Positions 5,705 through 36,884 of a stretch of DNA of 36,884 nt are shown here, piece by piece. Positions within the stretch are counted from its first letter, which is position 1, and every line of letters starts with the position of its first letter. The stretch is from positions 1-36,884 of the forward strand of contig JACQOS010000210.1 of assembly GCA_016202425.1 (NCBI GenBank), in the 5' to 3' direction. The notes beneath the pieces were generated by a model. It had not been told where the DNA came from and did not search any database. It saw only the letters and a list, made by a program, of their open reading frames with translations. The position numbers and the translations under genes were made by a program. This DNA is from Chloroflexota bacterium (lineage in GTDB: Bacteria; Chloroflexota; Dehalococcoidia; Lucifugimonadales; JACQOS01).

Positions 5705-7087
5705 TTACCCCCTGTGCTCGTGAGTGCTGCCTGGTGCCGACAGTGGCAGCTCGAAAACGAATCGGCTCCCCTTTCCCGGGGTGCTCTCGGCGCGGATGGT
5801 GCCCCCGTGGGCCTCCACCAGTTGTCTGGCGATGGTGAGCCCTAGGCCGACGCCCCCTGTGGCCCGGCTCCGCGATGGATCAACGCGGAAGAACCGCTCG
5901 AACACATGGGGGAGGAGATCTGGAGGAATGCCTTCCCCGGTGTCGGCGACGGTGACCGTGGCGCTGGGCCCTGCCACTTCCGCCGTGATGGTCACCTGGC
6001 CAGCCTCTGGAGTGTGAAGGACGGCGTTTTCCAGCAGGTTACCCACCACCTGGGCGATGCGCCTTCTGTCCATCTCAACCAGAGGAAAATCGGGCGGGAC
6101 ATCGAGAGCAATGGTGACGCCCTTGGCCTCTGCGCGGGGCCGCATGGCTTCCGCCGTCTTGCGAAGCACCTCTACCATGGAGTCCGGCTCGCGGTTCAGG
6201 CGTAGCGCTCCCGCCTCCGCCAGGGCCAGCAGTCTCAGGTCCTCCACCAGGTGCGCTAGCTGCAACACCTGCTGGTAGACAGTGTCAATGGTGGCGCTGT
6301 CGGGCTGCAGGAGGCCGTCCTTCACCGCCTCCAGGTAGCCCTGGATGTTGGAGAGCGGCGTTCTCAGCTCATGGGCCACATCGGCGACCAGATTGCGGCG
6401 CTGCCGCTCCGCCTTCTGCAAGCTGTCCGCCATGGTGTTGAAGGTACGGGCCAGCTCGCCGACCTCGTCGCGGCCCGGGGCCTGCACCCTCCTGGCCAGG
6501 TCGCCCTGGCCGAGGCTCCGTGCCGCCGAGCCCAGGAGCCGCACCGGAGCCAAGACCCGGCGGGCCATCAGGGAGACCAGCAAGATTCCGGTTGCCCCCG
6601 CCGCCAGACCGGTCCAGAGGAGGGACCGGTTCACTGCCGACACCAGTCGAGACAAGGGAGGCTCTGGAGCTATTTCCGGGGCGTCGCTGGGAGCGATGGC
6701 AAGAGAGCCTACCTGGCTGCCTTCGCTGAGGACGGGAAAGAGCTGGCCCCCTTGCCTGGCCTGTCTCCAGGGTCTGCCAAACTGTAGGTGAGAATCGCCG
6801 AGCACCCGCCCCTCCCGGTCCGTGACTACGATGCGCCATCCATACAGGGCGCCGGCCTGCTCGATGGCAGGTTGAAGGTCGGTCCAACCGCGCCGGGCTG
6901 AGTAGTACCGCTCGACGATCTGCTCGATACGGGCAGCCCGGCTCTCCGCCATCTGTCGCTGGAAGCGGTCTGCTTCTCGCTGCGCGGCGACCCCCACGTA
7001 CCAACTGATGCTCCCCAGAGCCAAGACCAGCGCGAGCGTGAAGCCCAGGACCAGACGGAACTGGAGACCGAAGAACCAGCTAGGCAT
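5705..7087 (-). CDS. Sensor histidine kinase (2 TM helices, HAMP, HisKA, HATPase_c)
   Basis: H-box VAHELRTPLSNIQGYLE, N-box NLLENAVLHT, G1 DTGEGI, G2 GGVGLGLTIA. A HAMP-like segment follows the second TM helix. Confidence 0.93.
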   Translation of the reverse strand: MPSWFFGLQFRLVLGFTLALVLALGSISWYVGVAAQREADRFQRQMAESRAARIEQIVERYYSARRGWTDLQPAIEQAGALYGWRIVVTDREGRVLGDSHLQFGRPWRQARQGGQLFPVLSEGSQVGSLAIAPSDAPEIAPEPPLSRLVSAVNRSLLWTGLAAGATGILLVSLMARRVLAPVRLLGSAARSLGQGDLARRVQAPGRDEVGELARTFNTMADSLQKAERQRRNLVADVAHELRTPLSNIQGYLEAVKDGLLQPDSATIDTVYQQVLQLAHLVEDLRLLALAEAGALRLNREPDSMVEVLRKTAEAMRPRAEAKGVTIALDVPPDFPLVEMDRRRIAQVVGNLLENAVLHTPEAGQVTITAEVAGPSATVTVADTGEGIPPDLLPHVFERFFRVDPSRSRATGGVGLGLTIARQLVEAHGGTIRAESTPGKGSRFVFELPLSAPGSTHEHRG

Positions 7088-7775
7088 CGCCGAACCTGTA
7101 GCCTACGCCGTAGACGGCGTGAATATAGCGGGGCCTCTGCGGGTCTGCCTCGAGCTTCCGGCGGAGGTTGGAGACGTGAGCGTCCACCGTTCTATCGAAG
7201 CCGTCGAAGTCCTCGCCAAACACCCTGTCCATGATCTCCTGCCTGGTGAAGGTCCTGCCCGGCTGGCGCAGGAGCAAGACCAGCAGCCGGAACTCGGTGG
7301 GCGTAAGACGCACTGGTGTCGCCCCGACGCGCACTGCTCGGTGGCGGAGGTCTGCCGTGATGTTCCCATGCCGTAGCTCGGCAGGCCCCCGGTCCACGGC
7401 GCCGGTCGCTGTTCGCCGCAGCACCGCCCGGATCCGCGCTGCCAGTTCCCTGGGGCTGAAGGGCTTGGCGACGTAGTCATCGGCTCCCAGGTCCAGGCCC
7501 ACCAGGCGGTCGTCCTCCTCGACCCGGGCCGTGAGCATGACTATGGGCACGTCCGACTCCTCTCTCAAGATGCGGCACACCTCCATACCATCCAGGCCCG
7601 GCAACATCAGGTCCAGGACCACCAGGTCCGGGTGGGCTTCCCGGGCCAGGCGCAGCCCTTCGGGGCCGTCGGAAGCGATCAGCACCTTGTGGCCATCGCG
7701 GCCCAGGTACAGGCGCACCAACTCGACGGTGTTGGGGTCGTCCTCCACTATCAGGACCGTGCTCGCCATCTCCAT
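7080..7775 (-). CDS. OmpR/PhoB-family response regulator (receiver plus winged-helix DNA-binding domain)
   Basis: Receiver domain: VLIVEDD, DLVVLDLMLPGLDG, YVAKPF. The C-terminal trans_reg_C region ends YIHAVYGVGYRF. Overlaps the kinase gene by 8 nt. Confidence 0.93.
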   Translation of the reverse strand: MEMASTVLIVEDDPNTVELVRLYLGRDGHKVLIASDGPEGLRLAREAHPDLVVLDLMLPGLDGMEVCRILREESDVPIVMLTARVEEDDRLVGLDLGADDYVAKPFSPRELAARIRAVLRRTATGAVDRGPAELRHGNITADLRHRAVRVGATPVRLTPTEFRLLVLLLRQPGRTFTRQEIMDRVFGEDFDGFDRTVDAHVSNLRRKLEADPQRPRYIHAVYGVGYRFGDA

Positions 7776-13892: not shown

Positions 13893-14444
13893 ATGTCCTG
13901 CGGCAAGACCTATCTGACGGACGAGGTAAAGGCGCTGGTTGGAGTCACGGGCGAGCGGGTGCCGGCGTCCTTGTGGGGGATCGAGAGAGAGGGGCTCAGG
14001 CGCTTCTGCCAGGCCCTCATGGACCCGGACCCCCGCTACTGGGACGACCAGTTCGCCCGCACCACGAAGTACGGGGAGACCATCACTCCCGCCATCTACT
14101 GCACCTACCTGGACCGGACACCGCCGGGGGCGGAGGACCCGGTCACCCGGGCCTTTCGGGAGAACCCCGCGTCCGACGGGATAGGGGGCGTCCGGAGGGG
14201 CCGGGGCGCGCTGCCCGACGTGCCCACGGAGCTCAAGCGCATCCTGAACGCGGGCAACGAGATCGAGCTCTACAAGTACCCCCGGCTGGGCGACAACATC
14301 TTCTCTCAGGCCAAGTACGCCAGCATCGCGGAGCGCGTGGGCAGCGATGGCTCTCACATGCTCATCGTCACTGCGGAGACCAGGTACACGGACCAGCAGG
14401 GCCAGTTGCTCTGCATCACCCGCGCTTCGACCATCCGCCGGTAA
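13893..14444 (+). CDS. MaoC_dehydrat_N-type hotdog protein (HadA/HadC-like non-catalytic subunit), paralog 1
   Basis: 183 aa. Conserved block EGLRRFCQALMDPDPRYWDD is shared with the paralog at 15376-15927. RBS gggaggggg upstream. Confidence 0.75.
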   Translation: MSCGKTYLTDEVKALVGVTGERVPASLWGIEREGLRRFCQALMDPDPRYWDDQFARTTKYGETITPAIYCTYLDRTPPGAEDPVTRAFRENPASDGIGGVRRGRGALPDVPTELKRILNAGNEIELYKYPRLGDNIFSQAKYASIAERVGSDGSHMLIVTAETRYTDQQGQLLCITRASTIRR

Positions 14445-14481
14445 GAGCCAAGGGACTGGCCCAGGCGAGGAGGGACGAGCA

Positions 14482-14982
14482 ATGCCAACCGCCGAAGAAC
14501 TGCGCAGCAAGAAGCAGGTGCACTACGATGACGTGAAAGAGGGCCAGGAGATGCCCCCTTACGTCATCGGCCCCATCACGCCCACCCACATCTTCCGGTG
14601 GAGCGCCGCCATCGAGAACTGGCACAGGATCCACTACGACCAGGACTTCGCGGTGTATCACGACGGCCTGCCCAACGTGGTGGCCCAGGGGACCTGGAAG
14701 CAGAGCGTCATGCCCCAGTACCTGAAGGACCTCTGCTTGCCCGATGGCTGGGCATGGAAGGTCTCCTTTCAGCACCGGGCGATGATCGTGCCCGGGGATA
14801 CGCTGACCTGCCACGCCAAGGTGACCAAGAGGTACGTGAAAGAGGGGCTCGGGTTCGTTGAGCTGGAGGTAGGCATGAAGAACCAGGACGACGTCGAGAC
14901 GTGCCCCGGGTCGGGCACCATCGTGCTGCCCCTGCGAGGCGGCCGGCCTGTGCCCTATCCTTTCGTTCCGCCCAAGGAGTAG
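14482..14982 (+). CDS. MaoC-like hotdog-fold protein (HadB-like position) with a deviant hydratase-2 motif
   Basis: Sequence ..FRWSAAIENWHRIHYDQDFA.. aligns to the hydratase-2 motif G-D-x-N-P-[LIV]-H-x5-[AS] through I-H-x5-A. It has E-N where G-D is expected. Start set at ATG 14482. Confidence 0.7.
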   Translation: MPTAEELRSKKQVHYDDVKEGQEMPPYVIGPITPTHIFRWSAAIENWHRIHYDQDFAVYHDGLPNVVAQGTWKQSVMPQYLKDLCLPDGWAWKVSFQHRAMIVPGDTLTCHAKVTKRYVKEGLGFVELEVGMKNQDDVETCPGSGTIVLPLRGGRPVPYPFVPPKE

Positions 14983-15375: not shown

Positions 15376-15927
15376 ATGGCCACCGCAGTCACCAAGCTGA
15401 CACCTGAGGTCAAGGCGATGGTGGGGGTGCAGGGCGAGTTCGTCGAGGCCTCCTGGTGGGTGGTGGAGAAAGAGGGGCTCAGGCGTTTCTGCCAGGCCCT
15501 CATGGACCCGGACCCCCGCTACTGGGACGATGAGTTCGCCAGGACTACCCGCTACGGGGAGGTCGTCGCACCCCATATCTACGTGAGCTACCTGGGCCGG
15601 ACATCTCCCTCAGCAGGGGACCCCGTCAGCCGGGCCTTCAAAGAGGACCCGGTGTCCGATGGCATCGGCGGGGTGTGGGAGGCCCGCGGCGGCCTGCCCA
15701 ACGTGCCCACCGACCTGAAGCGGATCCTCAACGCCGGGAACGAGCTGGAGGTCTACCAGCTCCCCACCCTGGGCGACCGCATTTACTGCCAGTCCAGGTA
15801 CGCCAGCATCGCGGAGCGGACCGGCACGGACGGCAGCCCCATGCTCATCGTCACCACGGAGACGGCCTACTACAACCAGAGGGGCGATCTCCTCTGCGTC
15901 ACCCGCGCCTCCGCCATCCGCCGGTAG
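15376..15927 (+). CDS. MaoC_dehydrat_N-type hotdog protein, paralog 2
   Basis: Same length (183 aa) as 13893-14444 and collinear with it. By eye roughly two thirds of positions are identical. Confidence 0.75.
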   Translation: MATAVTKLTPEVKAMVGVQGEFVEASWWVVEKEGLRRFCQALMDPDPRYWDDEFARTTRYGEVVAPHIYVSYLGRTSPSAGDPVSRAFKEDPVSDGIGGVWEARGGLPNVPTDLKRILNAGNELEVYQLPTLGDRIYCQSRYASIAERTGTDGSPMLIVTTETAYYNQRGDLLCVTRASAIRR

Positions 15928-15983
15928 CCCCCCGGACGTCGCCACCCCGCTCATGGTTGGTTAAGCGAGGCATATTGCTAGAA

Positions 15984-16134
15984 GCTACTCGGGAAACCCT
16001 CACCCCCTGTACCCCCTCTCCCTTGCCAAGGGAGAGGGGGAAGAAAAGATAGCTGGGGGACACCCCCAGACCCCCGCCTGAGGGGGTCACAGCCCCCCTC
16101 TGGACTCCCCCGATAACGTATTTCCGAACCACTC
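15984..16134 (+). repeat. Modular palindromic intergenic element (MITE/REP-like), copy A
   Basis: Near-identical to 26551-26695 over gcta(c/t)tcgggaaaccctcaccccctgt..ctctcccttgccaagggagaggggg aagaaaagatagctgggggacacccccagaccc ... tatttccgaaccact. Contains hairpins ctctccctt-gccaagggagag and ctggggg-a-cacccccag. Sits between two convergent genes. Confidence 0.85.
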
Positions 16135-16440
16135 CTAGTCATTGCCTCCTGGAGAGTCTAGATGCTGCAAGACAGCAGACAAGGTTTCAGCATCGAATCC
16201 GAGTGCATCGCCCAACTGGACTATGCCTTGAAAGAACTCTGGGAACAACTCCTTGCGGAACGTTACGCCCTTCTTGGATGGCCTGAATCCTTGGCCAGAT
16301 TGGTAGAAGAGTCTGACATCAATGTAGCTGAAGCCTCGGTACTCGTTAAGACTGATTCTTATCTGCTCACGATTATTCTTGGAGAACACGTGGACAGGCA
16401 CGCCGAACTCGTCAGGTTCAGCCATATCTCGCTGTTCCAT
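16135..16440 (-). CDS. PC4/Sub1-like (YdbC-type) ssDNA-binding domain protein
   Basis: EQIRISLNEYRGFSYIDVRLFYQSGQGFRPSKKGVTFRKELFPEF follows the PC4 core pattern (x-V-S-x-F-K-G-x-x-IDIR-x-Y ... P-x-[KR]KG-[IV]-[ST]). The likely start is ATG 16440, preceded by GGGAGGGG with 6-nt spacing. The track ORF starts at TTG 16521. Confidence 0.7.
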   Translation of the reverse strand: MEQRDMAEPDEFGVPVHVFSKNNREQIRISLNEYRGFSYIDVRLFYQSGQGFRPSKKGVTFRKELFPEFFQGIVQLGDALGFDAETLSAVLQHLDSPGGND

Positions 16441-16487
16441 ATTGCCCCTCCCGCCGGTTGTTGCCTTGGGCAGTATAATATCCCCAG

Positions 16488-16509
16488 AGCCTGCGCTGCA
16501 GCGCAGGCT
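16488..16509. repeat. Perfect 22-bp palindrome between the DGQHR and PC4-like genes
   Basis: agcctgcgctgcagcgcaggct is its own reverse complement (CTGCAG at the centre). It lies between the stop at 16525 and the ATG at 16440. Confidence 0.9.
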
Positions 16510-16524
16510 TATGGTCTCCAAAAG

Positions 16525-17610
16525 CTACTCTGTCGTGTGACCTGCGGCAACCAGTTCTTCTTCCATAGAATCGGCCAATATGCTGAATCCCTTCATGGAC
16601 CCGGCAAGAGCGGCACCGTCTGCGTTATCCCTTTTCCAAAAATCTTCCGTAGCATACGCACCAAGGTCTTGCAGCACGTTCTGGAAATCGGATTTCCCGG
16701 GATCGCTCACCCCTCGAGCGCGTAGCACCTCCAAAACGTGATAGGCTAGTTGGTGTAAGCTGAATACTCCAGGCGTCTTCAATAGCACGTAGTCCTCCGG
16801 TTGCTGGAACGCACTCGGGATGAGCGCTTCGCACGCCTGCCAGTATGCCTTGAGCACTCGCGCTATGCGGTCGGCCGGCCAGGTACGGTAGGGGCGCTCA
16901 TTCAGGATTGGTTTCAAAGACGTGCTAAAAGAAAGCTCCCTGATCACGTGACTTGACTGCTTACGCACGTTCGGAGGCTGGATACGTCCAACCCAAGGGG
17001 AATCAGCATCCTGGCTTAGACTTCTCATAACGCCGACAGCTACAGCTTCCCAAAGACGCCCAGCCATCCGGACTTCTTGCCGTCCGGACTGTCCGAGGCC
17101 TGATATTCGCATAGCCAGGATGCGCCTAGCTAAGTCCGTACGGACCTTCTTCATCGTCTCGTTGATGACCCTGAACTGATTGGCCTCGTCTTCTAGAGAG
17201 AGGTTCTCCAGAATTACTACCGGCAGCGGGTAATCACGCAAGCGTTCCAGGCCAAGCTCATTGATAGCACGCTGGATACCGTACAAGCGGTGTTGCCCGT
17301 CGACGATCCACAGCGTCCCAGTCTCGGCGATCTCTACAGTCAACCAACCATCTTCGGACGCACCACGACTCAGTGGTCCCCTGTAGCTAAGGAGCACCGA
17401 TGTCGGCAGAAGCGCCTTGGGGCTGGATTGGAGATACCTGGCAACTTTGCCCGTCCGCGCGGTTTCTGGCACCCTCTGGTAGCCCATGTCGACTCCGTTC
17501 TCTTGGCGCCAGACATCCACCTTCGCTATGCTGAGTAGATCACCCACCTTTGCCACCCCGGCATACATTTGTACACCCTCCTGCTTGAACGGATACACTG
17601 CGAGACGCAT
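16525..17610 (-). CDS. DGQHR-domain protein (DndB/DpdB family, ParB/sulfiredoxin fold)
   Basis: TLWIVDGQHRLYGIQRAI (DGQHR motif) is followed by EDEANQFRVINETMKKV, the family's second signature. Length of about 360 aa is typical of DndB-like proteins. RBS GGAGG lies 6 nt before the ATG. GC is markedly lower than the flanks. Confidence 0.85.
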   Translation of the reverse strand: MRLAVYPFKQEGVQMYAGVAKVGDLLSIAKVDVWRQENGVDMGYQRVPETARTGKVARYLQSSPKALLPTSVLLSYRGPLSRGASEDGWLTVEIAETGTLWIVDGQHRLYGIQRAINELGLERLRDYPLPVVILENLSLEDEANQFRVINETMKKVRTDLARRILAMRISGLGQSGRQEVRMAGRLWEAVAVGVMRSLSQDADSPWVGRIQPPNVRKQSSHVIRELSFSTSLKPILNERPYRTWPADRIARVLKAYWQACEALIPSAFQQPEDYVLLKTPGVFSLHQLAYHVLEVLRARGVSDPGKSDFQNVLQDLGAYATEDFWKRDNADGAALAGSMKGFSILADSMEEELVAAGHTTE

Positions 17611-17665
17611 GACAAACCTCCATGTGTATTATTGATCAGCTCTGTCTAGAACTGATCTACTATCT

Positions 17666-17694
17666 ACTATATCAGATCAACTCAACTTTGTCAA
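17666..17694 (-). promoter_or_regulatory. Near-consensus sigma70-type promoter of the DGQHR/PC4 operon
   Basis: The minus strand reads TTGACA (17694-17689), a 17-nt spacer, then TATAGT (17671-17666). This is followed by a leader of about 50 nt and GGAGG-6nt-ATG. Confidence 0.65.
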
Positions 17695-17762
17695 GGCCCC
17701 ATCTGCCGCACTCCTCGTTGCACCCAGCGCATGGCAGAAATCGAATCTGACCCTGGTAGGCG

Positions 17763-18010
17763 GGTCTCAGAATGAGTGGCTCGCAGGTATCGCCGGCTCA
17801 AGCCCCCTTAACCCGTCCAATCCCTGCTACCGGCCCCAGAAATAGTGCAGGTATTGCTGCCCTGAGGCTCTGTGCCTCACCATGTCACCCTGAGCCCTTC
17901 GTCCCTCAGGGTGAACTCCGCGAAGGGTCTAAGGCCCATGCTTTAGATTCTTCGTCCCGACAAGTCGGGACTCAGAATGACACCCACAGGTATTGCCGAG
18001 CTTGTCCCTG
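17763..18010. repeat. Cluster of a second class of short palindromic/REP-like units in gene-free DNA
   Basis: ctcagaatga-N9-caggtat(c/t)gcc occurs twice (about 17767 and about 17972). Hairpins: caccctgag/ctcagggtg (17886-17913) and gtcccgac-aa-gtcgggac (17954-17971). Confidence 0.7.
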
Positions 18011-18294
18011 GCGAAGTGCGGCATGAGCGTCTGTTGAAGGGTGACGCGGGGTAGGCAGGTATGCGGCTCCGGGTTCTCGCCGGGTTGCGGTAGCGCCTTA
18101 CGGTGAAACGGTGCACAAGTAAGAGCTAGAGCCCTCTAGCTCCCAAAGAGCACCCCTGACCACCTGCAGCTACAACGGCCCTGCTTCTCCTGCTAACTCC
18201 TTTCGTGTATGCTCCCCCAGGCCTGAGCCGGGCCTCGCATCACCATGGCCTACCAAGTCACAAGCCCCGAAGCCGTCTCTCGGGGAGTTGCCGC

Positions 18295-19086
18295 ATGACG
18301 CCGGCCCTCTGGCTCGTCGTGGCCGGCCTCAGCTTCGGTGGGGGCGTCGTCACGGGGCTGCTGGGCGGCGGCGGCGCCTTGGTCATGGTGCCTCTGCTCC
18401 TCTACGGCCCGCCCCTGCTGGACGTCGGCGTCCTCCCCGTCAAGACCGTGGCGGCCATCGTCATCGTGTACGGCGTGTGTGCCACCGCCTCTGGCATCGT
18501 CGCCTACTACCGGCGGCGTCAGGTGTCCCTAACCGTCGCCGGGGCAGCGGGCGGCCTCATCGCCGGCGGCGCCCTTCTGGGAGGCGTGCTCTCCAAGTGG
18601 ACTCCGGATGCCCTGCTGCTGGCGGCCTTCGCGACCATGGCCACTCTCGGGGCCGTCCTCATGCTTCCGTCCGGCGGCCCCAGCCACGCCCCCAGCGGCG
18701 GCTACCGGCTGCGCCGGCCCTGGGTCCTGGGCCTTTTCTTCCCTGAGGGCGTCCTGGCCGGCATGGTGGGCGTGGGCGGCGGCTTCCTCACGGTGCCTGT
18801 GCTCCACGTCTTCATGGCGGTCCCCCTGCGCATGGCCATCGGCAGCTCCCTGGCCGTCAGTTGGTTTGGCCTGAGCGCGGGCCTGGCGGGCAAGCTGGTC
18901 ACCGGCCAGGTCCCCTTCTGGCTCTCCCTGGCCGCGGCCATCGGCGGCGTCGGCGGGGCGCAGCTAGGCGTCCTGGTCAACCGGCGAATCCGGGCGGCCT
19001 ACCTGCGCCACATGCTCGTGGGCCTTCTGGTGGTCGTCGCCGTGCGCTTCTGGTGGGAGACGCTCTCCAGGGCCGGTGTACTATAA
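18295..19086 (+). CDS. TauE/SafE-family (sulfite/anion exporter-like) membrane protein
   Basis: About 8 TM helices with Gly-rich repeats (GLLGGGGALVMVPLL; GMVGVGGGFLTVPVL). Start set at ATG 18295 (MTPALWLVVAG). Confidence 0.8.
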   Translation: MTPALWLVVAGLSFGGGVVTGLLGGGGALVMVPLLLYGPPLLDVGVLPVKTVAAIVIVYGVCATASGIVAYYRRRQVSLTVAGAAGGLIAGGALLGGVLSKWTPDALLLAAFATMATLGAVLMLPSGGPSHAPSGGYRLRRPWVLGLFFPEGVLAGMVGVGGGFLTVPVLHVFMAVPLRMAIGSSLAVSWFGLSAGLAGKLVTGQVPFWLSLAAAIGGVGGAQLGVLVNRRIRAAYLRHMLVGLLVVVAVRFWWETLSRAGVL

Positions 19087-19168: not shown

Positions 19169-20335
19169 ATGTCCGTGACCTTTGACCTCGTCGGCACCGA
19201 TGGCGCGGCCCGCGTCGGGGTCCTGCACACGCCCCACGGGGACGTGCCGACGCCCGCCTTTCTCCCCGTGGCCACCCAGGGCTCCGTCAAGACCGTGGCC
19301 CCTCAGGAGCTGCGGGAGGCGGGGGTTCCCATGGTCCTGGGAAACACCTACCACCTGTTCCTTCGCCCCGGGGTGGAGAGGGTCCGGTCGCTGGGCGGGC
19401 TGAGCGCCTTCATGGGCTGGAACGGCCCCGTGATGACCGATAGCGGCGGCTTCCAGGCGTACAGTCTCGGCAGCCGGGTCCGCGTGAGGGAGGAGGGTCT
19501 CCAGTTCCAGTCGCCCGTGGACGGCAGCGTCCACCTGCTGACCCCCGAGGGGTCCATCGCCTACCAGGAGGCCCTGGGGTCCGACGTCGCCATGGTCCTG
19601 GACCAGTGCCTGGCCTACACGCAGGACCAAGAGGTCATCCGCTCCGCCATGGAGCGCACCCATCGCTGGGCGCAGCGGTCCAGGGCCGCACACTCGGATG
19701 CGCGACAGGCCCTCTTCGGCATCGTCCAGGGAGGTGTCTTCCCGGACCTGCGCGAGACATCGGCTGCCCTTGTCACGTCTTTGGGGTTCGCGGGATACGC
19801 CATCGGTGGACTCTCCGTGGGGGAACCCAAGGCCATGACCTACGCAACAGTCGCCGCCACCGCCTCCCTCCTTCCCCAGGAGCAGCCGCGCCACCTGCTG
19901 GGGGTAGGGTCACCGGAGGACCTGGTGGAGTGCGTAGCCCGTGGGGTGGACCTGTTCGACTGCGCCCTCCCCACCCGGGTCGCCCGCCACGGCGCACTGT
20001 TCACGTCCCAGGGGCGGGTCAACGTCACCAGCGCTGCGTTCAAGACGAGGCAGGGGCCCGTGGAGGAAGGGTGCGACTGCTTCGCCTGCCGCCATTTTTC
20101 TGCGGCCTACCTGAACCACCTGCTGCGGGCCAGCGAGCTTCTGGGCCTCCGCCTGGCCACCATCCACAACCTGCGGTTCGTCGCCAGGACCATGGAGCAG
20201 ATGCGTGAGGCCATCCTGAAGGGGGCCTTCTCAGCCTTTGCCGAAGATTTCCTCCGCCGGTACCGGCCAGCCCACGAGGAAGAGCGCGTGGAGCAGCGCC
20301 GCAAGAGGCTAGCTATCCGCGCTCGCGTAACCTAG
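19169..20335 (+). CDS. tgt: Queuine tRNA-ribosyltransferase (tRNA-guanine transglycosylase)
   Basis: Collinear with bacterial Tgt: LGNTYHL, MTDSGGFQ, GGLSVGEP, LLGVGSPEDL, and Zn site CDCFAC..x..H (AYLNHL). Confidence 0.95.
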   Translation: MSVTFDLVGTDGAARVGVLHTPHGDVPTPAFLPVATQGSVKTVAPQELREAGVPMVLGNTYHLFLRPGVERVRSLGGLSAFMGWNGPVMTDSGGFQAYSLGSRVRVREEGLQFQSPVDGSVHLLTPEGSIAYQEALGSDVAMVLDQCLAYTQDQEVIRSAMERTHRWAQRSRAAHSDARQALFGIVQGGVFPDLRETSAALVTSLGFAGYAIGGLSVGEPKAMTYATVAATASLLPQEQPRHLLGVGSPEDLVECVARGVDLFDCALPTRVARHGALFTSQGRVNVTSAAFKTRQGPVEEGCDCFACRHFSAAYLNHLLRASELLGLRLATIHNLRFVARTMEQMREAILKGAFSAFAEDFLRRYRPAHEEERVEQRRKRLAIRARVT

Positions 20336-20481: not shown

Positions 20482-21012
20482 ATGGATGCCCAGGAGTTCG
20501 TTCGCTTCGCCATCGAGAGGACGAGGGGGGCCACCCTGGCCATGGTCCGCGACGTGCGCCAGGAGGACCTGGCCTGGCGGCCCGGCCCGGAGGCGAACCC
20601 CATCGGTTTCCTGCTCTTCCATATCTTCCGCTCCGAAGACAGGCTGCTGCACAGGCTCCTGGGTGGGACCGACGAGGTCTGGGACCGCGAGGGATGGGAT
20701 CGCCGCTGGCGCCTTCCCCCGCCGCCGCCCGACGCCGCAGAGCTCTGGTTCACCGGAAACAGTTGGACGCCAGCTCAGGTAGCCGCCTGGAAGGCTCCGG
20801 CCAAGGAGGAGCTGCTCGCCTACGGCGAGCAGGCCCACCGCAGCGGCCTGGAGGTCCTCCCCAAGCTCGATCCCGCCCAGTGGCACGTCCTGGTGCGGCC
20901 CGAGCGGACGCGCGCCTTCTACCTTCATCTGGTCATGCATCACGAGGCCCAGCACCAGGGACAGATCGACTACGTCGCCGGCATCCTGAGGACGCGAGGC
21001 GGGACCCGCTAG
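20482..21012 (+). CDS. DinB-family (DinB_2-like four-helix bundle) protein, paralog 1
   Basis: ANPIGFLLFHIFRSEDR ... HHEAQHQGQIDYV shows the His triad pattern of DinB/YfiT-like proteins. Confidence 0.75.
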   Translation: MDAQEFVRFAIERTRGATLAMVRDVRQEDLAWRPGPEANPIGFLLFHIFRSEDRLLHRLLGGTDEVWDREGWDRRWRLPPPPPDAAELWFTGNSWTPAQVAAWKAPAKEELLAYGEQAHRSGLEVLPKLDPAQWHVLVRPERTRAFYLHLVMHHEAQHQGQIDYVAGILRTRGGTR

Positions 21013-21038: not shown

Positions 21039-21620
21039 ATGGACCTCCGTGAGTACGTGGCCCAGGCCCTGGAGAGGACACGCCAGCGAACGCTGGACAT
21101 GGTGCAGGACCTGCGCCAGGAGGACCTGGCCTGGCGGCCCGGCCCGGAGGCCAACCCTGTAGGCTTTCTCCTCTTCCACGTCTTCCGGTCAGAAGACCGC
21201 TACTTCCACGTCTGGCTGAGCCCCGCCGGGGAGGTTTGGTCCCGAGAAGGGTGGGACCGGCGATGGCCAATGCCCCAGCCTCCGCCCGACGCCCCCGACC
21301 AATGGACCACAGGCTTCTCCTGGACGCCGCAGCACGTAGGCGCCTGGGCCCCGCCACCCAGGGAGGAGCTGCTCGACTACGGCCAGCGGGTCCGCAAGAG
21401 CGCCCTGCTGGTGCTGGGGCGTCTCGACCTCGGCCTGCTGCCCGTGCCGGTGCGCCCGGATCAACCTCTCAGGACCCGCGCCTACTTCCTCTACCAGGCC
21501 TCCCATCACGAGGCCCAGCACCAGGGGCAGATCGACTACATCAGCGGCCTGAGAAAAGCAGGAGCGGCCCCCTCGCGAGGGGGCCGCTCCTCGGCGTCAC
21601 GTGCCAGGAAGCGCGCCTAG
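21039..21620 (+). CDS. DinB-family protein, paralog 2
   Basis: Same motifs (ANPVGFLLFHVFRSEDR ... HHEAQHQGQIDYI). Start set at ATG 21039 (MDLREYVAQ). Its stop overlaps the moaD-like stop through a shared CTAG. Confidence 0.75.
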   Translation: MDLREYVAQALERTRQRTLDMVQDLRQEDLAWRPGPEANPVGFLLFHVFRSEDRYFHVWLSPAGEVWSREGWDRRWPMPQPPPDAPDQWTTGFSWTPQHVGAWAPPPREELLDYGQRVRKSALLVLGRLDLGLLPVPVRPDQPLRTRAYFLYQASHHEAQHQGQIDYISGLRKAGAAPSRGGRSSASRARKRA

Positions 21621-24963: not shown

Positions 24964-25118
24964 CAGCAGGCTGCTGAAAAAGGGGAGTCCAGTCCCGACT
25001 CGTCGGGATTGGCGGGGGCCTGGGGGTGTCCCCCAGATACAATTTCTTCCCCCTTCCTGGCAAGGAAGGGGGCGCGGGGGATGGTCGTCCCGACCAGTCG
25101 GGATTCAGCAGCCTGCTA
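24964..25118 (-). repeat. Modular palindromic element, copy D, bounded by about 15-bp terminal inverted repeats
   Basis: cagcaggctgctgaa (24964-24978) pairs with ttcagcagcctgct (25104-25117). The interior carries the cccgac-N4-gtcggga, ctgggggtgtcccccag and cttcctggcaaggaag hairpin modules in reverse order relative to copies A and B. Confidence 0.8.
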
Positions 25119-26186: not shown

Positions 26187-26549
26187 GTGACCCGGCACCA
26201 AGACGAGCCCCTGTACGTCATGGGCGTGGCGGCCCGCATGGCGGGGCTGCACGCCCAGACCCTGCGCTACTACGAGCGCGCCGGGCTCCTCACCCCGGCC
26301 CGCTCCGAAGGCAACCGCAGGTACTACTCGGAGCGGGACCTGGAGCGGGTCCGGCGCATCAAGACCCTCATGGACGACCTGGGCATGAACCTGGCGGGCG
26401 TCGAGGTGGTGCTCCGTCTCATGGAGCGCCTCACCGAGATGGAGCAGCAGGCCCAGCAGCTCTTGGCGGAGGTGGAGCATCTGCGGGCCCAGGGTCGCCC
26501 TCCGGCCCTCCGGGAGGGGAAGCCCCACGAGCAAGGCCAACAGCCGTGA
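26187..26549 (+). CDS. hspR: MerR-family heat-shock repressor HspR
   Basis: YVMGVAARMAGLHAQTLRYYERAGLLTPARSEGNRRYYSERDLERVRRIKTL. Positioned directly after a dnaJ-type gene, as in known dnaJ/cbpA-hspR operons. Confidence 0.85.
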   Translation: MTRHQDEPLYVMGVAARMAGLHAQTLRYYERAGLLTPARSEGNRRYYSERDLERVRRIKTLMDDLGMNLAGVEVVLRLMERLTEMEQQAQQLLAEVEHLRAQGRPPALREGKPHEQGQQP

Positions 26550-26550
26550 G

Positions 26551-26695
26551 GCTATTCGGGAAACCCTCACCCCCTGTTCCCCCTCTCCCTTGGCAAGGGA
26601 GAGGGGGAAGAAAAGATAGCTGGGGGACACCCCCAGACCCCTGCCATCCCGACCCGTCGGGATGGACTCCCCCGAGACGTATTTCCGAACCACTT
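26551..26695 (+). repeat. Modular palindromic element, copy B (between hspR and the Clp ATPase gene)
   Basis: Near-identical to copy A in its first ~90 nt and last ~25 nt. The central module is swapped for catcccgac-ccgt-cgggatgg. Confidence 0.85.
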
Positions 26696-26775: not shown

Positions 26776-29229
26776 ATGGTGCTGAGACCTGAGAACTTTA
26801 CAGAACAGGCCCAGGAGGTGCTGGGCACCTCCCAGGAGCTGGTGCGTCAGTACCGACACAGCCAGTGGGACCTGGAGCACATCCTTCTGGCCCTCCTGCA
26901 ACTGGAGCGGGGCGTGCCTGCGGAGATCATGGAGGCCCTGGGGGTCAACGTGGACTCCCTGAAGGCGCGCGTGGAGCAGTCCCTGGAGCGCACGCCCAAG
27001 ACCGTCCACGAGGTCTCCCAAATCTACGCCACTCCCCGGGCCCTTCGGGTCATCGAGAGCGCCAAGGCGGAGGCCAGCCGCCTGAAGGACGAGTTCATCG
27101 GCACCGAGCACCTGCTCATCGGCTGCATCCTGGAGCGGGAGGGCGAGGCCGCCCGGACCTTCAAGGAGTTCGGCATTGACCAGGAGAAGGTCTACAAGGC
27201 CCTCCAAATGGTCCGGGGCACCGCCAGGGTCACGGACCCGCGCGCCGAGAGCAAGTACCGGGCCCTGGACAAGTACACCGTTGACCTCACGGCCATGGCC
27301 CGGGAGGGCAAGCTGGACCCGGTCATCGGGCGTGAGGAGGAGGTCCGCCGGGTGATGCAGACCCTGGCCCGGCGCACCAAGCACACCCCGGTGATCATCG
27401 GCGCTGCGGGCGTCGGCAAGACGGCCATCGCCGAAGGGCTTGCCCAGCGCATCGTCGCCGGCGACGTTCCAGACATCCTCCAGGGGCGGCGGGTCCTCGC
27501 CCTGGACCTGGGGGCCCTCATCGCCGGCTCCAAGTTCCGCGGCGAGTTCGAAGAGCGCCTGAAGGCGGTGATGGACGAGGTGAAGCGGGCCAAGGGGGAG
27601 GTGATCCTCTTCATAGACGAGCTTCACAACGTGGTGGGGGCCGGCGCCGCCGAAGGCGCCATCGACGCCAGCAACCTCATGAAGCCCGCCCTGGCCAGGG
27701 GAGAGCTCCAGTGCGTCGGCGCTACCACGCCCGACGACTACCGCTAGTACATCGAGAAAGACTCCGCCCTGGAGCGGCGCTTCCAGCCCATCTGGGTGGA
27801 GGAGCCCTCGCTGGACGACGCCATCGAGATGCTCCGCGCCTTGCGGCCCCGCTACGAGGCCCACCACAAGGTCAAAATCGACGACTCCGCCCTGGTGGCG
27901 GCCGTCAAGCTCAGCAGCCGCTACATCACGGAGCGCCACCTGCCCGACAAGGCGGTGGACCTCATAGACGAGGCGGCCAGCAAGCTTCGCATCGACGCCC
28001 AGGGCCTTCCGGTCTCCCTCAAGGAGAAGGAGCGCCAGTTGGAGCAGCTTCAGAACGAAGAAGAGGCCGCGGCCCAGCGCTCCGACTATGAGGGGGCGGC
28101 GAGGCTCAAGGCCCAGCGCCTCAAGCTGGAGCAGGAGTACAACCCGGCCAAGGAGGCCTGGATGGCCGGGAAAAAGATCGAGACGGTAGTGAACGCCGAG
28201 GTGATCGCTGACCTGGTGTCCCGGTGGACGGGTATCCCCCTCAGCGGACTCCTGGAGGAGGAGGCGGAAAGGCTTCTCCACATGGAGGAGCGCCTCCACC
28301 AGCGGGTCATCGGCCAGGACCACGCCATCGGCGTCGTGGCCGAGGCCATCCGCCGGGCCCGGGCAGGCATGAAGGACCCCAAGCGGCCCATCGGCAGCTT
28401 CATCTTCCTGGGACCCACGGGGGTGGGCAAGACGGAGCTGGCCCGCGCCCTTGCCCAGTTCCTCTTCGACTCAGAAGAGAACATGGTGCGCATCGACATG
28501 TCGGAGTACCTGGAGAAACACACCGTCTCCCGCCTCATCGGCGCTCCCCCCGGCTACGTCGGCTACGAGGAGGGAGGCCAGCTCACCGAGGCCGTCCGCC
28601 GCCGCCCCTACCGAGTGGTCCTCTTCGACGAGATCGAGAAGGCCCACCCGGACGTGTTCAACATCCTCCTCCAGATCCTGGAGGACGGCCGCCTGACCGA
28701 CGGCCACGGACGCACGGTGGACTTCCGCAACACCGTCGTGATCATGACCAGCAACCTGGGCACGGCGGAGCTGGGACGTCAGGCCCTGGGCTTCCGCCGG
28801 GAGGAGCCTGGAAGCGAGCCGGAGCGCAGGAAGCTCCGGGCGTCCGTGGAGGAGGCGCTGAGGAAGGCCTTCCGGCCGGAGTTCCTGAACCGCATCGATG
28901 AGATCGTTATCTTCGACCCCCTCAGCCAGGAGCAGATCGAGCAGATCGTCGGGCTCATGATGGGAGAGGTGCAGAAGCGCCTGGCCGAGCGAGGTGTGAC
29001 CGCGGAGCTTGCGCCTGCCGCCCGCCAGTGGCTGGCCAAGGAGGGATTTGACCCCACCTTCGGCGCCAGGCCTCTCCGTCGCGCCCTCCAGCGCTACGTG
29101 GAGAACCCCCTCTCCAAGCGCATCCTCGCCCGGGAGTTCCCCGAGGGGAGCCACGTTATCGTCGACGTGGGGCCCGAGGGCCTCACCTTCCAGCAGGCGA
29201 AGGCGCCCGCCGGCACTGCGGCCCGCTGA
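26776..29229 (+). pseudogene. clpC: ClpC-type AAA+ unfoldase (two NBDs, short UVR-like middle domain) interrupted by one in-frame TAG at 27745-27747
   Basis: The two track ORFs (26776-27747 and 27796-29229) are in the same frame. The junction reads [22 protein letters not shown], where homologs have R-[KQ]-Y. Walker [10 protein letters not shown] and GPTGVGKTE. Walker B ILFIDELH and [14 protein letters not shown] loop present. Confidence 0.8.
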
Positions 29230-36674: not shown

Positions 36675-36675
36675 C

Positions 36676-36884
36676 AGTGGTTCGAAAATTCGTCTCGGGG
36701 GAGTCCATCCCGATGGGTCGGGATGGCGGGGGTCTGGGGGTGTCCCCCACTGGGCACTGCCCAGACCCACGACTCGCTACCGTCGCCTGTCGTAGGTACG
36801 CGGCAACGCGGGGACAGGGGAGTGCAGGGCGAGCCCTGCTCCCTCTCTCCCTTGGCAAGGGAGAGGGGGTACAGGAGGTGAGGG
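36676..36884 (-). repeat. Modular palindromic element, copy C (reverse orientation, runs off the window)
   Basis: Its reverse complement matches copies A and B at both ends (..ctctcccttgccaagggagag.. and ..ggggacacccccagaccc..catcccgac..gtcgggatggactcccccgagacg..ttcgaaccact). A ~100-nt extra insert replaces the aagaaaagatagc linker. Confidence 0.8.

What the first reader, a model, noticed from the sequence alone, without database searches (positions are those of the whole stretch)
16135..17694. Foreign two-gene island pairing a DGQHR (DndB/DpdB-like ParB-fold) protein with a PC4/Sub1-like ssDNA binder, with no Dnd/Dpd partners: candidate uncharacterised DNA-surveillance/defence module
Seen in sequence:
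- Two co-directional minus-strand genes share one near-consensus promoter.
- Gene 1 (361 aa) has both DndB-family signatures (IVDGQHRLYG and QFRVINETMKKV).
- Gene 2 (about 101 aa from ATG 16440) has the PC4 core pattern (IRISLNEYRGFSYIDVRLFY...PSKKGVTF).
- Hand-counted lines inside the island are 31-32 of 60 G+C, against 45 of 60 in a flanking gene.
- The island is bracketed by a palindromic repeat element on one side and about 680 bp of repeat-filled gene-free DNA on the other.

Established knowledge: DGQHR proteins are known as DndB (regulator of DndACDE phosphorothioation) and DpdB (partner of the TGT-like DpdA in 7-deazaguanine DNA modification). They belong to the ParB/Srx NTPase/nuclease fold. 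PC4/YdbC domains bind ssDNA.

Inference: no cysteine desulfurase, DndC/D/E, DpdA/C-K, Ssp, restriction or helicase gene accompanies this pair. It therefore looks like a self-contained, horizontally acquired module in which an ssDNA sensor is coupled to a ParB-like effector or regulator. I do not know of a described system with this composition.
Basis: partly seen in the sequence, partly recalled or inferred. Interest (0 to 1): 0.85.

Follow-up and report, generated by a model that had tools for sequence, protein, structure and literature searches.

The report
ParB-like DGQHR plus PC4 gene cassette
A low-GC two-gene insert in a Chloroflexi genome pairs a ParB-like (DGQHR) NTPase-fold protein with a small PC4-type single-stranded-DNA binder; the pair recurs in about 30 other genomes and metagenome contigs with its own promoter carrying evenly spaced GATC repeats, looks like an undescribed DNA-surveillance or defence-associated module, and has no tested function.

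Summary
ORF 16525-17610(-) is a DGQHR-domain protein (TIGR03187 113 bits, cutoff 58.9). ORF 16135-16440(-) is a PC4-family protein (PF02229 41 bits; model TM 0.81-0.88 to the bacterial PC4 homologue BPSL1147). GC falls to 55% against 65-70%. The 36.9-kb contig otherwise carries housekeeping genes, with no Dnd, Dpd, restriction or integrase genes.

The pair is conserved: 11 distinct loci show direct adjacency and 19 more share a contig. The two proteins' divergences correlate (Mantel r 0.67). GC is below the flanks in 13 of 15 loci.

New findings:
- Close orthologues carry 3-6 TGATCT/AGATCA hexamers spaced 20-21 bp over their promoter (17 of 20 fetched loci; 0 of 165 loci of other DGQHR clades). 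This looks like an operator.
- The pair is often extended by a UvrD-like helicase, which is fused to a DGQHR domain in one protein, or by a PLD-SNF2 helicase plus a Type ISP enzyme. It also sits next to McrBC or other restriction genes.

Best reading: an autoregulated, horizontally mobile DNA-surveillance or defence-associated cassette. It is not a DndB or DpdB orthologue. No paper describing it was found. Function is inferred, not shown.

The parts
16525..17610 (-). DGQHR-domain protein gene (361 aa). It has an N-terminal ParB/Srx-like NTP-binding fold with the DGQHR and QFRVINETMKKV motifs, and a C-terminal helical half with no structural match.
   Evidence: TIGR03187 113 bits (cutoff 58.85) and Pfam DndB 57.4 bits. 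The AF2 model has pLDDT 87. Foldseek PDB finds Noc, PadC, pNOB8 ParB-N and sulfiredoxin at probability 0.8-0.98. BFVD finds DndB-like, DUF262 and ParB proteins down to E 5.6e-11. 52 columns are invariant across 20 homologues, including D104 G105 Q106 H107 R108, Q145, F146 and N150.
16135..16440 (-). PC4-family ssDNA-binding protein gene (101 aa from ATG 16440; the alternative start ATG 16425 gives 96 aa).
   Evidence: PF02229 41.2 bits against a cutoff of 25. An alignment profile hits solved PC4 structures: BPSL1147 at E 9e-12 and human PC4 at E 5e-9. The AF2 model is beta4-alpha with pLDDT 84. Foldseek gives TMt 0.81-0.88 to BPSL1147, and also finds T5 PC4-like, MoSub1 and human PC4.
17666..17694 (-). 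Sigma-70-type promoter: TTGACA (17694-17689), a 17-nt spacer, then TGn-TATAGT (17671-17666).
   Evidence: It matches 11 of 12 positions and is the only promoter-like site in 15800-18400. Most homologous loci have a TTGACA-type promoter at the same relative place.
17633..17679 (-). Array of three GATC-core hexamers at 17674-17679, 17653-17658 and 17633-17638 (TGATCT / AGATCA / TGATCA type), spaced 21 and 20 bp apart. They bracket the -10 element and run into the 5'UTR. This is a putative operator or loading site.
   Evidence: These are the only phased hexamer pairs in the 36.9-kb window, with 0 expected from shuffles. The same 20-21-bp arrays occur upstream of close orthologues (17 of 20 fetched loci) and in 0 of 165 loci of other DGQHR clades. 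Binding has not been tested.
17617..17621 (-). Shine-Dalgarno sequence GGAGG, 6 nt upstream of the DGQHR ATG.
   Evidence: Read directly from the sequence. GGAGG is also present at the equivalent position in most homologous loci.
16488..16509 (-). Perfect palindrome AGCCTGCGC-TGCA-GCGCAGGCT in the 84-nt spacer between the two genes. Its role is unknown.
   Evidence: Read directly from the sequence and seen in the fold. The spacer as a whole folds no better than shuffles (z -1.08), and spacer length is not conserved in homologues (0-155 nt).
15981..16134 (.). Copy of a dispersed REP-like palindromic repeat of the host genome (core 16012-16040), plus a terminator-like hairpin at 16053-16069(-) downstream of the PC4 gene.
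   Evidence: Other copies lie at 26548-26694, 36670-36884 and 25011-25072. The terminator-like site was found.
17695..18294 (.). Low-GC gene-free stretch between the cassette promoter and the TauE-family gene.
   Evidence: GC is 0.544 at 17501-18000. There is no Rfam family and no tRNA. No remnant of the helicase or other partner genes of homologous loci was found by tblastn; only chance-level hits appeared.

Best explanation
The region is the minimal two-gene form of a horizontally mobile, self-regulated DNA-transaction cassette.

- Gene 1 encodes a DGQHR protein with a ParB/Srx-fold NTP-binding domain and a private helical domain. It most likely binds cooperatively to the phased TGATCT hexamers that overlap its own strong promoter, and so represses the operon. 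This is how its relative DndB behaves at the dnd promoter.
- Gene 2 encodes a PC4-type dimer that binds single-stranded or melted DNA.
- Together they are proposed to recognise unusual DNA states such as ssDNA, replication or transfer intermediates of invading elements. They would then either block these directly or hand them to partner enzymes.
- Larger versions of the cassette encode such partners in the same operon: a UvrD-like helicase, or a PLD-SNF2 helicase plus a Type ISP restriction-modification enzyme.

Shown here: the identity and fold of both proteins, conservation and co-divergence of the pair, conservation of the promoter array, the accessory partners, and the foreign composition.

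Inferred only: who binds the array, NTP use, a physical DGQHR-PC4 interaction, and the anti-invader role.
For: - Family and fold.
- Pair conservation: direct adjacency in the window, L001, L166, L168, L169, L173, L006, L007, L085, L087 and L203, and a 2.5-kb separation in L002. There are also 23 exact contig-length matches between the DGQHR and PC4 hit lists.
- Co-divergence: Mantel r 0.67, with 0 of 2000 permutations as high.
- Operator: GATC is 5.8-fold enriched in the 150 nt upstream (50 observed against 8.7 expected, Poisson p 5e-22). 32 of 50 sites are TGATCT or AGATCA. Spacing of 20-21 bp is seen in 17 of 20 fetched close-clade loci and 0 of 165 others. The arrays are the only ones in each locus, apart from one extra phased pair in L086. 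They persist where PC4 is absent (L004, L171, L086), which points to the DGQHR protein as the binder.
- Precedents: DndB represses its own operon through promoter palindromes (PMC4507180). DpdB is a DNA-stimulated ATPase (PMC10164549).
- Link to nucleic-acid enzymes: a UvrD-like helicase lies directly downstream in L006, L007, L173 and L169. P0331 is a helicase-DGQHR fusion. A PLD-SNF2 helicase plus Type ISP enzyme follows in an operon in L168 and L203. McrBC is adjacent in L085. L002 sits in an island with SNF2, Dcm and Vsr genes.
- Mobility: GC is below the flanks in 13 of 15 loci. Flanking genes differ in every locus, and hosts include Chloroflexota and a Trueperaceae (Deinococcota) genome.
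Against: - No experiment exists on any member of this clade.
- PADLOC v2 models give nothing for PC4 and only weak DpdB similarity for the DGQHR protein.
- In the window, L001 and L166 the pair sits among housekeeping genes with no effector, so an autonomous killing or blocking activity has to be assumed.
- No nuclease motif was identified in the C-terminal half, and Foldseek found no match for it.
- PC4 is missing from 5 of about 17 distinct close loci, and close PC4 relatives occur alone.
- No close relative was found in phage, plasmid or IMG/VR collections, so a vehicle for transfer is not identified.
- The Mantel correlation could partly reflect shared host phylogeny.
Confidence: 0.4

Rival explanations
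1. The pair is only a regulatory unit: a DndB-like repressor plus a PC4-type co-factor that senses ssDNA. In complete systems it would control adjacent restriction or helicase genes. In the window it would be an orphan left after the effector genes were lost, with no present function beyond autoregulation.
For: - DndB is a transcriptional repressor (PMC4507180).
- The pair sits at the 5' end of the PLD-SNF2/Type ISP operon in L168 and L203.
- The operator-like array overlaps the promoter.
- The window has no effector gene.
Against: - The two-gene form recurs intact, with all motifs invariant, in several unrelated contexts (window, L001, L166). An orphan remnant should decay.
- No trace of lost partner genes lies in the 680-bp flank.
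- The NTP-binding motifs are strictly conserved, which a plain repressor would not need.
Confidence: 0.2
2. The pair is a DNA repair, replication-restart or nucleoid accessory rather than a defence module. A ParB-like clamp plus an ssDNA binder would assist helicases at stalled forks or lesions.
For: - The partner helicases are UvrD-like.
- Lhr lies next to the cassette in L006, L007 and L173.
- A sister DGQHR clade sits next to class II ribonucleotide reductase in 19 Dehalococcoidia loci.
- PC4 proteins act in repair in eukaryotes (established knowledge).
- Solo PC4 lies next to priA in L205.
Against: - The pair has a patchy cross-phylum distribution, GC consistently lower than its flanks, and a different genomic position in nearly every host.
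- It recurs next to restriction genes.
- L006, L007 and L173 are syntenic and count as one lineage.
Confidence: 0.15
3. The pair is a partition-like or centromere-binding module left by an integrated mobile element. The layout would be an iteron array that doubles as the promoter, then an NTPase, then a small dimeric DNA-binding protein, as in type II/Ib par loci (parC-parM-parR; the pSK41 centromere has 20-bp repeats).
For: - Phased 20-21-bp repeats overlap the promoter upstream of an NTPase-fold gene followed by a small DNA-binding dimer gene.
- The ParB fold gives structural hits to Noc and pNOB8 ParB-N.
- L168 lies in an ICE-like region with a TrwC relaxase and an integrase.
Against: - No ParA- or ParM-type motor lies in the cassette.
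- The loci are chromosomal and mostly lack other mobile-element genes.
- No close relatives occur on plasmids or phages.
- The operon link to helicases and restriction enzymes is not a partition feature.
- The comparison with par loci rests on recalled knowledge and was not tested here.
Confidence: 0.1
4. The DGQHR protein is a DpdB-like helper that works in trans with the queuosine or 7-deazaguanine machinery (Tgt, QueA, QueG) to modify DNA or structured ssDNA. Alternatively, the PC4 protein is an anti-defence factor like the PC4-fold nickase AcrIIA22.
For: - The DpdB model is the second-best NCBIfam hit, after the generic DGQHR-domain model (57.9 bits).
- tgt lies 1.5 kb from the window cassette, and queA (divergent) and queG flank the orthologue in L004.
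- DpdB ATPase is needed for DpdA (PMC10164549).
- AcrIIA22 is a PC4-like nickase (PMC8545432).
Against: - Queuosine genes lie near the cassette in only 2 of about 17 close loci and in none of the other roughly 190 loci. The rough post-hoc binomial p is about 0.007.
- The Tgt here is the canonical tRNA enzyme.
- The window PC4 keeps the C-terminal helix that AcrIIA22 lacks.
- The cassette is chromosomal, not phage-borne.
Confidence: 0.06

Closest known systems
DndB (regulator of DndBCDE DNA phosphorothioation)
   Same: - It has the DGQHR motif and the same overall domain family (Pfam PF14072, TIGR03187).
- Its gene lies at the 5' end of its operon.
- DndB binds repeated motifs in its own promoter and autoregulates (PMC4507180). 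The window gene has an operator-like array at the same place.
   Different: - The DndB equivalog model scores 16.5 bits against a cutoff of 328.
- There are no dndA, dndC, dndD or dndE genes.
- The cis motif is a phased GATC hexamer array, not TACG-N10-CGTA.
- The partner is a PC4-type protein.
DpdB (ParB-like ATPase partner of the DNA transglycosylase DpdA in the Dpd 7-deazaguanine system)
   Same: - It is the best specific model hit, with full-length alignment over residues 9-320.
- Dpd clusters, as recalled rather than tested here, also combine a DGQHR protein with SNF2-type helicases and a PLD protein. Similar proteins follow the pair in L168 and L203.
   Different: - The score is 57.9 bits against a cutoff of 300.
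- There is no DpdA or DpdC, and the neighbouring TGT is the tRNA enzyme.
- PC4 is not part of Dpd.
ParB/Noc/KorB-type CTP-dependent DNA clamps and their repeated loading sites
   Same: - The N-terminal domain has the ParB/Srx fold.
- A specific repeated DNA site lies next to the gene.
- KorB-type members are also repressors (recalled knowledge).
   Different: - There is no ParA partner.
- No ParB-type HTH was detected.
- The motif is DGQHR rather than GERRxR.
- NTP specificity is unknown.
Bacterial and phage PC4-like proteins (BPSL1147, YdbC, SP_0782, phage T5 PC4-like SSB) and eukaryotic PC4/Sub1
   Same: - It shows sequence and fold membership.
- It has the beta4-alpha topology, and the columns aligned with MoSub1 'FKK', 'REYY' and 'PGKKG' are conserved. 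These correspond, from memory, to human F77, W89, R100 and K101.
   Different: - None of those proteins is known to be paired with a ParB-fold NTPase.
- The physiological roles of bacterial PC4 homologues are largely unknown.
DUF262-type ParB-fold defence proteins (GmrSD, SspE, BrxU)
   Same: - They share the superfamily and an NTPase-sensor logic coupled to DNA-cleaving or DNA-processing partners.
- Viral structural neighbours of the model include GmrSD N-terminal domains.
   Different: - PF03235 scores only 12.3 bits against a cutoff of 33.2.
- There is no fused DUF1524/HNH nuclease domain.

Membership tests
DGQHR domain family (TIGR03187 / Pfam DndB PF14072) | Profile score above the curated cutoff | tested here: met
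   TIGR03187 scores 113 bits against 58.85, and PF14072 scores 57.4 against 29.1.
DGQHR domain family (TIGR03187 / Pfam DndB PF14072) | DGQHR motif and the downstream QFxxINxxxKK motif are present and conserved | tested here: met
   D104-R108, Q145, F146, I149, N150, E151 and K155 are invariant in 20 homologues.
DndB proper (Dnd phosphorothioation system) | Equivalog model TIGR03233 above cutoff | tested here: not met
   It scores 16.5 bits against 328. TIGR04172 scores 47.1 against 450.
DndB proper (Dnd phosphorothioation system) | Linked dndC, dndD and dndE (and a cysteine desulfurase) | tested here: not met
   The 27 window ORFs scanned, which span the contig, are all housekeeping. No close-orthologue locus shows Dnd genes.
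DndB proper (Dnd phosphorothioation system) | Binds repeated motifs in its own promoter and represses | not testable with these tools
   A conserved phased hexamer array overlaps the promoter. Binding needs EMSA or footprinting.
DpdB (Dpd 7-deazaguanine DNA modification) | Equivalog model NF041060 above cutoff | tested here: not met
   It scores 57.9 bits against 300. PADLOC DpdB gives 55 bits.
DpdB (Dpd 7-deazaguanine DNA modification) | Adjacent DpdA (DNA transglycosylase) and DpdC | tested here: not met
   The nearby TGT is Tgt (TIGR00430 474.5 bits against 306.75), and the DpdA model scores 17.5 against 200. No DpdA was found in any close locus.
DpdB (Dpd 7-deazaguanine DNA modification) | DNA-stimulated ATPase activity | not testable with these tools
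   The motifs are intact, but a biochemical assay is needed.
ParB/Srx superfamily | N-terminal ParB/Srx fold | tested here: met
   Foldseek PDB finds Noc 7nfu, PadC 6ryk and Srx 3cyi at probability 0.9-0.98, although with weak E-values of 0.05-0.4. BFVD finds DndB-like, ParB and DUF262 proteins at E 5.6e-11 to 1e-3.
ParABS-type partition system | Cognate ParA/ParM motor gene in the cassette | tested here: not met
   There is none in the window or beside the pair in any close locus. One unrelated ParA lies 6 kb away in L166.
PC4 family (PF02229) | Profile score above the gathering threshold and the PC4 fold | tested here: met
   It scores 41.2 bits against 25. The profile gives E 9e-12 to BPSL1147 and 5e-9 to human PC4. 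TMt is 0.81-0.88.
PC4 family (PF02229) | Dimeric binding of ssDNA or melted duplex | not testable with these tools
   The aromatic and basic columns aligned with MoSub1 and PC4 DNA-contact residues are conserved. The residue roles are recalled from the literature.
Catalogued anti-phage defence systems (PADLOC-DB v2.0) | Significant match of the components to a system model | tested here: not met
   PC4 has 0 hits and DGQHR has only a weak DpdB hit. The accessory helicases match only generic GajB/UvrD and HKD+Snf2 candidate models.

The most novel reading that the evidence does not exclude
The cassette is a previously undescribed, self-regulated anti-mobile-element system with the following proposed logic:
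- A ParB-fold NTPase loads at phased GATC-core iterons.
- Occupancy of these sites could depend on GATC methylation, so that foreign Dam-type methylases or unmethylated incoming DNA would be read out.
- A PC4-type dimer senses single-stranded or melted DNA.
- The two-gene form is active on its own.
- The helicase and PLD-SNF2/Type ISP versions are modular extensions of the same sensor.
Probability: 0.22. Interest if true: 0.8.

Novelty: new variant of a known kind. Interest (0 to 1): 0.62.

Why it matters
DGQHR proteins are so far understood only as accessories of two DNA-modification systems, DndB and DpdB. This clade shows the same protein type without any modification enzyme. It is tied instead to a PC4-type ssDNA binder, to its own conserved repeat array, and to interchangeable helicase or restriction partners.

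If the function is confirmed, it would do three things:
- Define what the DGQHR/ParB-like component contributes on its own, which is an open point for both Dnd and Dpd.
- Give bacterial PC4 homologues their first defined partner.
- Add a compact cassette with a clear, testable cis element of three hexamers over 47 bp.

It may also be a defence or defence-regulatory module typical of poorly studied phyla such as Chloroflexota, and possibly CPR bacteria and DPANN archaea, where more distant relatives carry related 13-bp GATCT arrays.

Tried and rejected
- **Hidden Dnd or Dpd context.** Rejected. The window ORFs scanned across the contig are housekeeping, and the TGT is the canonical Tgt.
- **Lost partner genes in the 680-bp flank.** Rejected. 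tblastn with all ORFs of 16 close loci gave only chance-level hits.
- **Island boundaries.** No tRNA gene, no att-like direct repeats and no integrase were found. The palindromic element is a dispersed host repeat.
- **Non-coding RNA in the region.** No Rfam family reached its threshold. The intergenic hairpin is no more stable than shuffles.
- **DGQHR-PC4 fusion proteins.** None occur among 120 homologues.
- **Divergent PC4 in the loci without PC4.** None was found with a permissive HMM search. The small downstream ORFs of L003 and L004 have no Pfam match.
- **Phage or plasmid origin.** No relative above about 28% identity was found in INPHARED, PLSDB or IMG/VR.
- **Solved-structure homologue of the DGQHR protein by sequence.** None was found. 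The C-terminal half has no fold match.
- **Literature.** No paper holds DndB together with PC4, and searches for DGQHR and for PF14072/PF02229 turned up no description of the pairing.
- **Queuosine link.** Only two loci show it, so it is kept as an aside.
- **Hetero-complex prediction.** This was not possible with the tools at hand.
Full report
**Observation**

The window is a whole 36,884-bp contig of a Chloroflexi MAG, going by the source name of the identical protein P0001. On the minus strand, ORF 16525-17610 (361 aa) and ORF 16135-16521 (start most likely ATG 16440, 101 aa) lie 84 nt apart.

- The first is a DGQHR-domain protein. TIGR03187 scores 113 bits against a cutoff of 58.85, and Pfam DndB scores 57.4 against 29.1.
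- The second is a PC4-family protein. PF02229 scores 41.2 against 25.
- GC is 0.54-0.57 across 16001-18000 and 0.62-0.75 elsewhere.
- A near-consensus promoter, TTGACA-17-TGnTATAGT, lies at 17694-17666(-).
- The 27 window ORFs scanned, which span the contig, encode housekeeping functions: HtrA, a MacB/HlyD transporter, a two-component system, PheA, MaoC-type dehydratases, TauE, Tgt, DinB, DnaJ, ClpB and FtsK. None is a Dnd, Dpd, restriction, helicase or integrase gene.
- The TGT gene 1.5 kb away is the canonical tRNA enzyme. TIGR00430 scores 474.5 against 306.75, and the DpdA model scores 17.5 against 200.
- The palindromic element beside the island is one copy of a dispersed REP-like repeat.
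- No tRNA gene, att repeat or Rfam family marks the island.

**The proteins**

The AlphaFold model of the DGQHR protein has pLDDT 87.

- Its N-terminal roughly 150 residues match ParB-family and sulfiredoxin structures (Noc, PadC, pNOB8 ParB-N, Srx) at probability 0.8-0.98, though with weak E-values.
- Among viral models it matches DndB-like, DUF262/GmrSD-N and ParB proteins.
- The C-terminal helical half has no structural match, and no solved structure is detectable by sequence.
- The specific family models fail: DndB scores 16.5 against 328, DpdB 57.9 against 300, and DGQHR_dnd_1 47 against 450. The protein is a member of the DGQHR domain family but not an orthologue of DndB or DpdB.
- Twenty homologues at 43-71% identity keep 52 invariant columns along the whole length, including DGQHR and QF..INE...K.

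The PC4 model (pLDDT 84, beta4-alpha) superposes on the bacterial PC4 homologue BPSL1147 (TM 0.81-0.88, 33-35% identity). It also matches T5 PC4-like protein, MoSub1 and human PC4. A profile of the family hits those structures by sequence (E 9e-12 to 5e-9), with the aromatic and basic columns conserved.

**Conservation of the pair**

Loci of close DGQHR orthologues were retrieved by gene look-up and by collection scans.

- The PC4 gene is directly adjacent in the window, L001, L166, L168, L169, L173, L006, L007, L085, L087 and L203. It lies 2.5 kb away in L002.
- Five distinct close loci lack it: L003, L004, L086, L171 and L008.
- Independently, 23 PC4 hits share an exact contig length with a DGQHR hit. 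That is 20 of the 39 high-scoring PC4 hits on contigs of at least 1.8 kb, against 1 of 26 low-scoring ones.
- Over 30 pairs the two distance matrices correlate (Mantel r 0.67; 0 of 2000 permutations as high).
- Close PC4 relatives also occur alone (L204, L205).
- The cassette's GC is below its flanks in 13 of 15 loci, in hosts from 42 to 68% GC. Flanking genes differ from locus to locus, and hosts include Chloroflexota and a Trueperaceae genome.
- No relative above about 28% identity is present in the phage, plasmid or IMG/VR collections.
- The close clade is narrow: about six 50%-identity clusters score above roughly 400 bits, out of 3,736 clusters of the wider DGQHR superfamily.

**A conserved cis element**

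The 150 nt upstream of close orthologues holds 3-6 GATC-core hexamers.

- GATC is 5.8-fold enriched there (50 observed against 8.7 expected; Poisson p 5e-22).
- 32 of 50 sites are TGATCT or AGATCA, with T at -1 in 86% and T at +4 in 78%.
- Successive sites are 20-21 bp apart in 17 of the 20 fetched close-clade loci (about 14 distinct) and in none of 165 loci of other DGQHR clades.
- Phased pairs occur nowhere else in the loci, apart from one extra pair in L086, and never in shuffles.
- In the window the hexamers lie at 17674-17679, 17653-17658 and 17633-17638. That places them just upstream of the -10 element, near the likely transcription start, and in the 5'UTR.
- In several loci an inverted pair of hexamers brackets the -10 element.
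- The arrays persist in loci without PC4, so the DGQHR protein is the more likely binder.
- More distant relatives (L088, L089, a Parcubacteria locus, a Nanoarchaeia locus and the L006/L007 lineage) have GATCT repeats with a 13-14-bp period instead.
- This parallels DndB, which represses its own operon through repeated promoter motifs (PMC4507180). Binding here has not been tested.

**Accessory partners**

- A UvrD-like SF1 helicase of about 780 aa follows the DGQHR gene directly in L006, L007, L173 and L169.
- One protein of the superfamily (P0331) is a UvrD-like helicase fused to a DGQHR domain.
- In L168 and L203 the pair is followed, with overlaps or gaps of about 20 nt, by a PLD-SNF2 helicase of about 1,060 aa and a Type ISP/Eco57I-type enzyme. 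The best PADLOC match for the helicase is the HKD+Snf2 candidate model at E 9e-57.
- L085 has McrB and McrC upstream of the pair, one ORF removed.
- L002 lies in an island with SNF2, PLD-SNF2, Dcm, Vsr and DUF6339 genes.
- Other DGQHR clades have other partners: class II ribonucleotide reductase in 19 Dehalococcoidia loci; a B12-radical-SAM enzyme with an SMC-like ATPase and an AlbA_2 protein in archaea; and a GIY-YIG nuclease on Sinorhizobium plasmids.

**Interpretation**

The data support a horizontally mobile cassette. Its core is a ParB-fold DGQHR protein with a cognate phased repeat array over its own promoter, usually joined by a PC4-type ssDNA binder, and modularly extended by helicases and restriction-type enzymes.

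The most likely working model has two parts:
- The DGQHR protein autorepresses the operon at the array.
- The DGQHR and PC4 proteins act together on single-stranded or melted DNA of invading or replicating elements, alone or by recruiting the partner enzymes.

Only the anatomy is shown. The binding, NTP use, complex formation and biological role are inferred. Confidence in the whole model is about 0.4.

The rivals are:
- a pure regulatory pair, orphaned in the window;
- a repair or replication accessory;
- a partition-like relic;
- a DpdB-like helper of queuosine enzymes, or a PC4-fold anti-defence factor like AcrIIA22 (PMC8545432).

The queuosine idea rests on two loci only, the window (tgt) and L004 (queA, queG).

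**Novelty**

No paper in the held library mentions DndB together with PC4, and searches for DGQHR and for the two Pfam accessions turned up no description of the pairing. PADLOC v2 has no model for it. It is best filed as a new variant of the DGQHR (DndB/DpdB-type) kind: same protein type, but a different partner, a different cis element and no modification enzyme.

Noticed in passing
window 17633-17679; L001, L002, L004, L085, L086, L166, L168, L169, L171 and L203 in the -130 to -4 nt upstream of the DGQHR start: There is a phased array of TGATCT/AGATCA hexamers, 20-21 bp apart, overlapping the cassette promoter. It is specific to the close clade. The GATC core raises the question of whether Dam-type methylation affects it.
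   Followed up: yes
L088 about -93 to -41; L011 -85 to -46; L089 -94/-81; L020 -56/-43; L006 and L007 -40/-26: More distant DGQHR relatives, including Parcubacteria and Nanoarchaeia loci, carry GATCT direct repeats with a 13-14-bp period upstream of the gene instead of the 20-21-bp array.
   Followed up: partly
window 19169-20335 (tgt); L004 4503-5627 (queG) and 6683-7738 (queA, divergent from the DGQHR gene): Queuosine tRNA-modification genes lie next to the cassette in two independent loci and in none of the other roughly 200 loci. This is curious given the DpdB-DpdA (TGT-like) relationship, but it is statistically weak and post hoc.
   Followed up: partly
window 15981-16134, 26548-26694, 36670-36884, 25011-25072 and 1-39: A dispersed REP/MITE-like repeat family has a perfect 14-bp-arm palindrome core (CCCCCTCTCCCTTG N CAAGGGAGAGGGGG). 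At least three full copies lie in the contig, all in intergenic positions.
   Followed up: partly
P0331 (1053 aa; from the representative search): This is a Rosetta-stone fusion of a UvrD-like SF1 helicase (residues about 190-670) with a C-terminal DGQHR domain (698-1043). P0289 instead fuses HhH/HTH-like segments to a DGQHR domain.
   Followed up: partly
L014-L040 group (for example L026 7393-9810): A sister DGQHR clade (about 30-34% identity) sits immediately next to a class II ribonucleotide reductase with a TSCPD domain in 19 Dehalococcoidia loci. It has no GATC array and no PC4.
   Followed up: partly
L163 4912-7126, L150 3516-5504 and related Bathyarchaeia loci: An archaeal DGQHR clade is linked to a B12-binding radical-SAM-like protein (32 loci), an SMC/AAA_23 ATPase and a Schlafen AlbA_2 protein. 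This may be a separate DNA-modification or defence system.
   Followed up: partly
window 26776-27747 and 27796-29229 (+): ClpB appears split into two same-frame ORFs. One holds Clp_N plus the first AAA domain; the other holds AAA_lid_9, AAA_2 and D2-small. This could be an in-frame stop or an assembly error.
   Followed up: no
window 13893-14982 and 15376-15927; 20482-21012 and 21066-21620: There are tandem paralogues: two sets of FAS1-like/MaoC dehydratase genes just downstream of the island, and two adjacent DinB_2 genes after tgt.
   Followed up: no
L207 (Sinorhizobium mexicanum plasmid pEmeITTGR7b) 4734-6427: A distant DGQHR protein (25% identity) forms a two-gene unit with a GIY-YIG nuclease, preceded by a 3'-5' exonuclease. 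This is another example of a DGQHR protein paired with a small nucleic-acid enzyme, in a cultured and tractable host.
   Followed up: no
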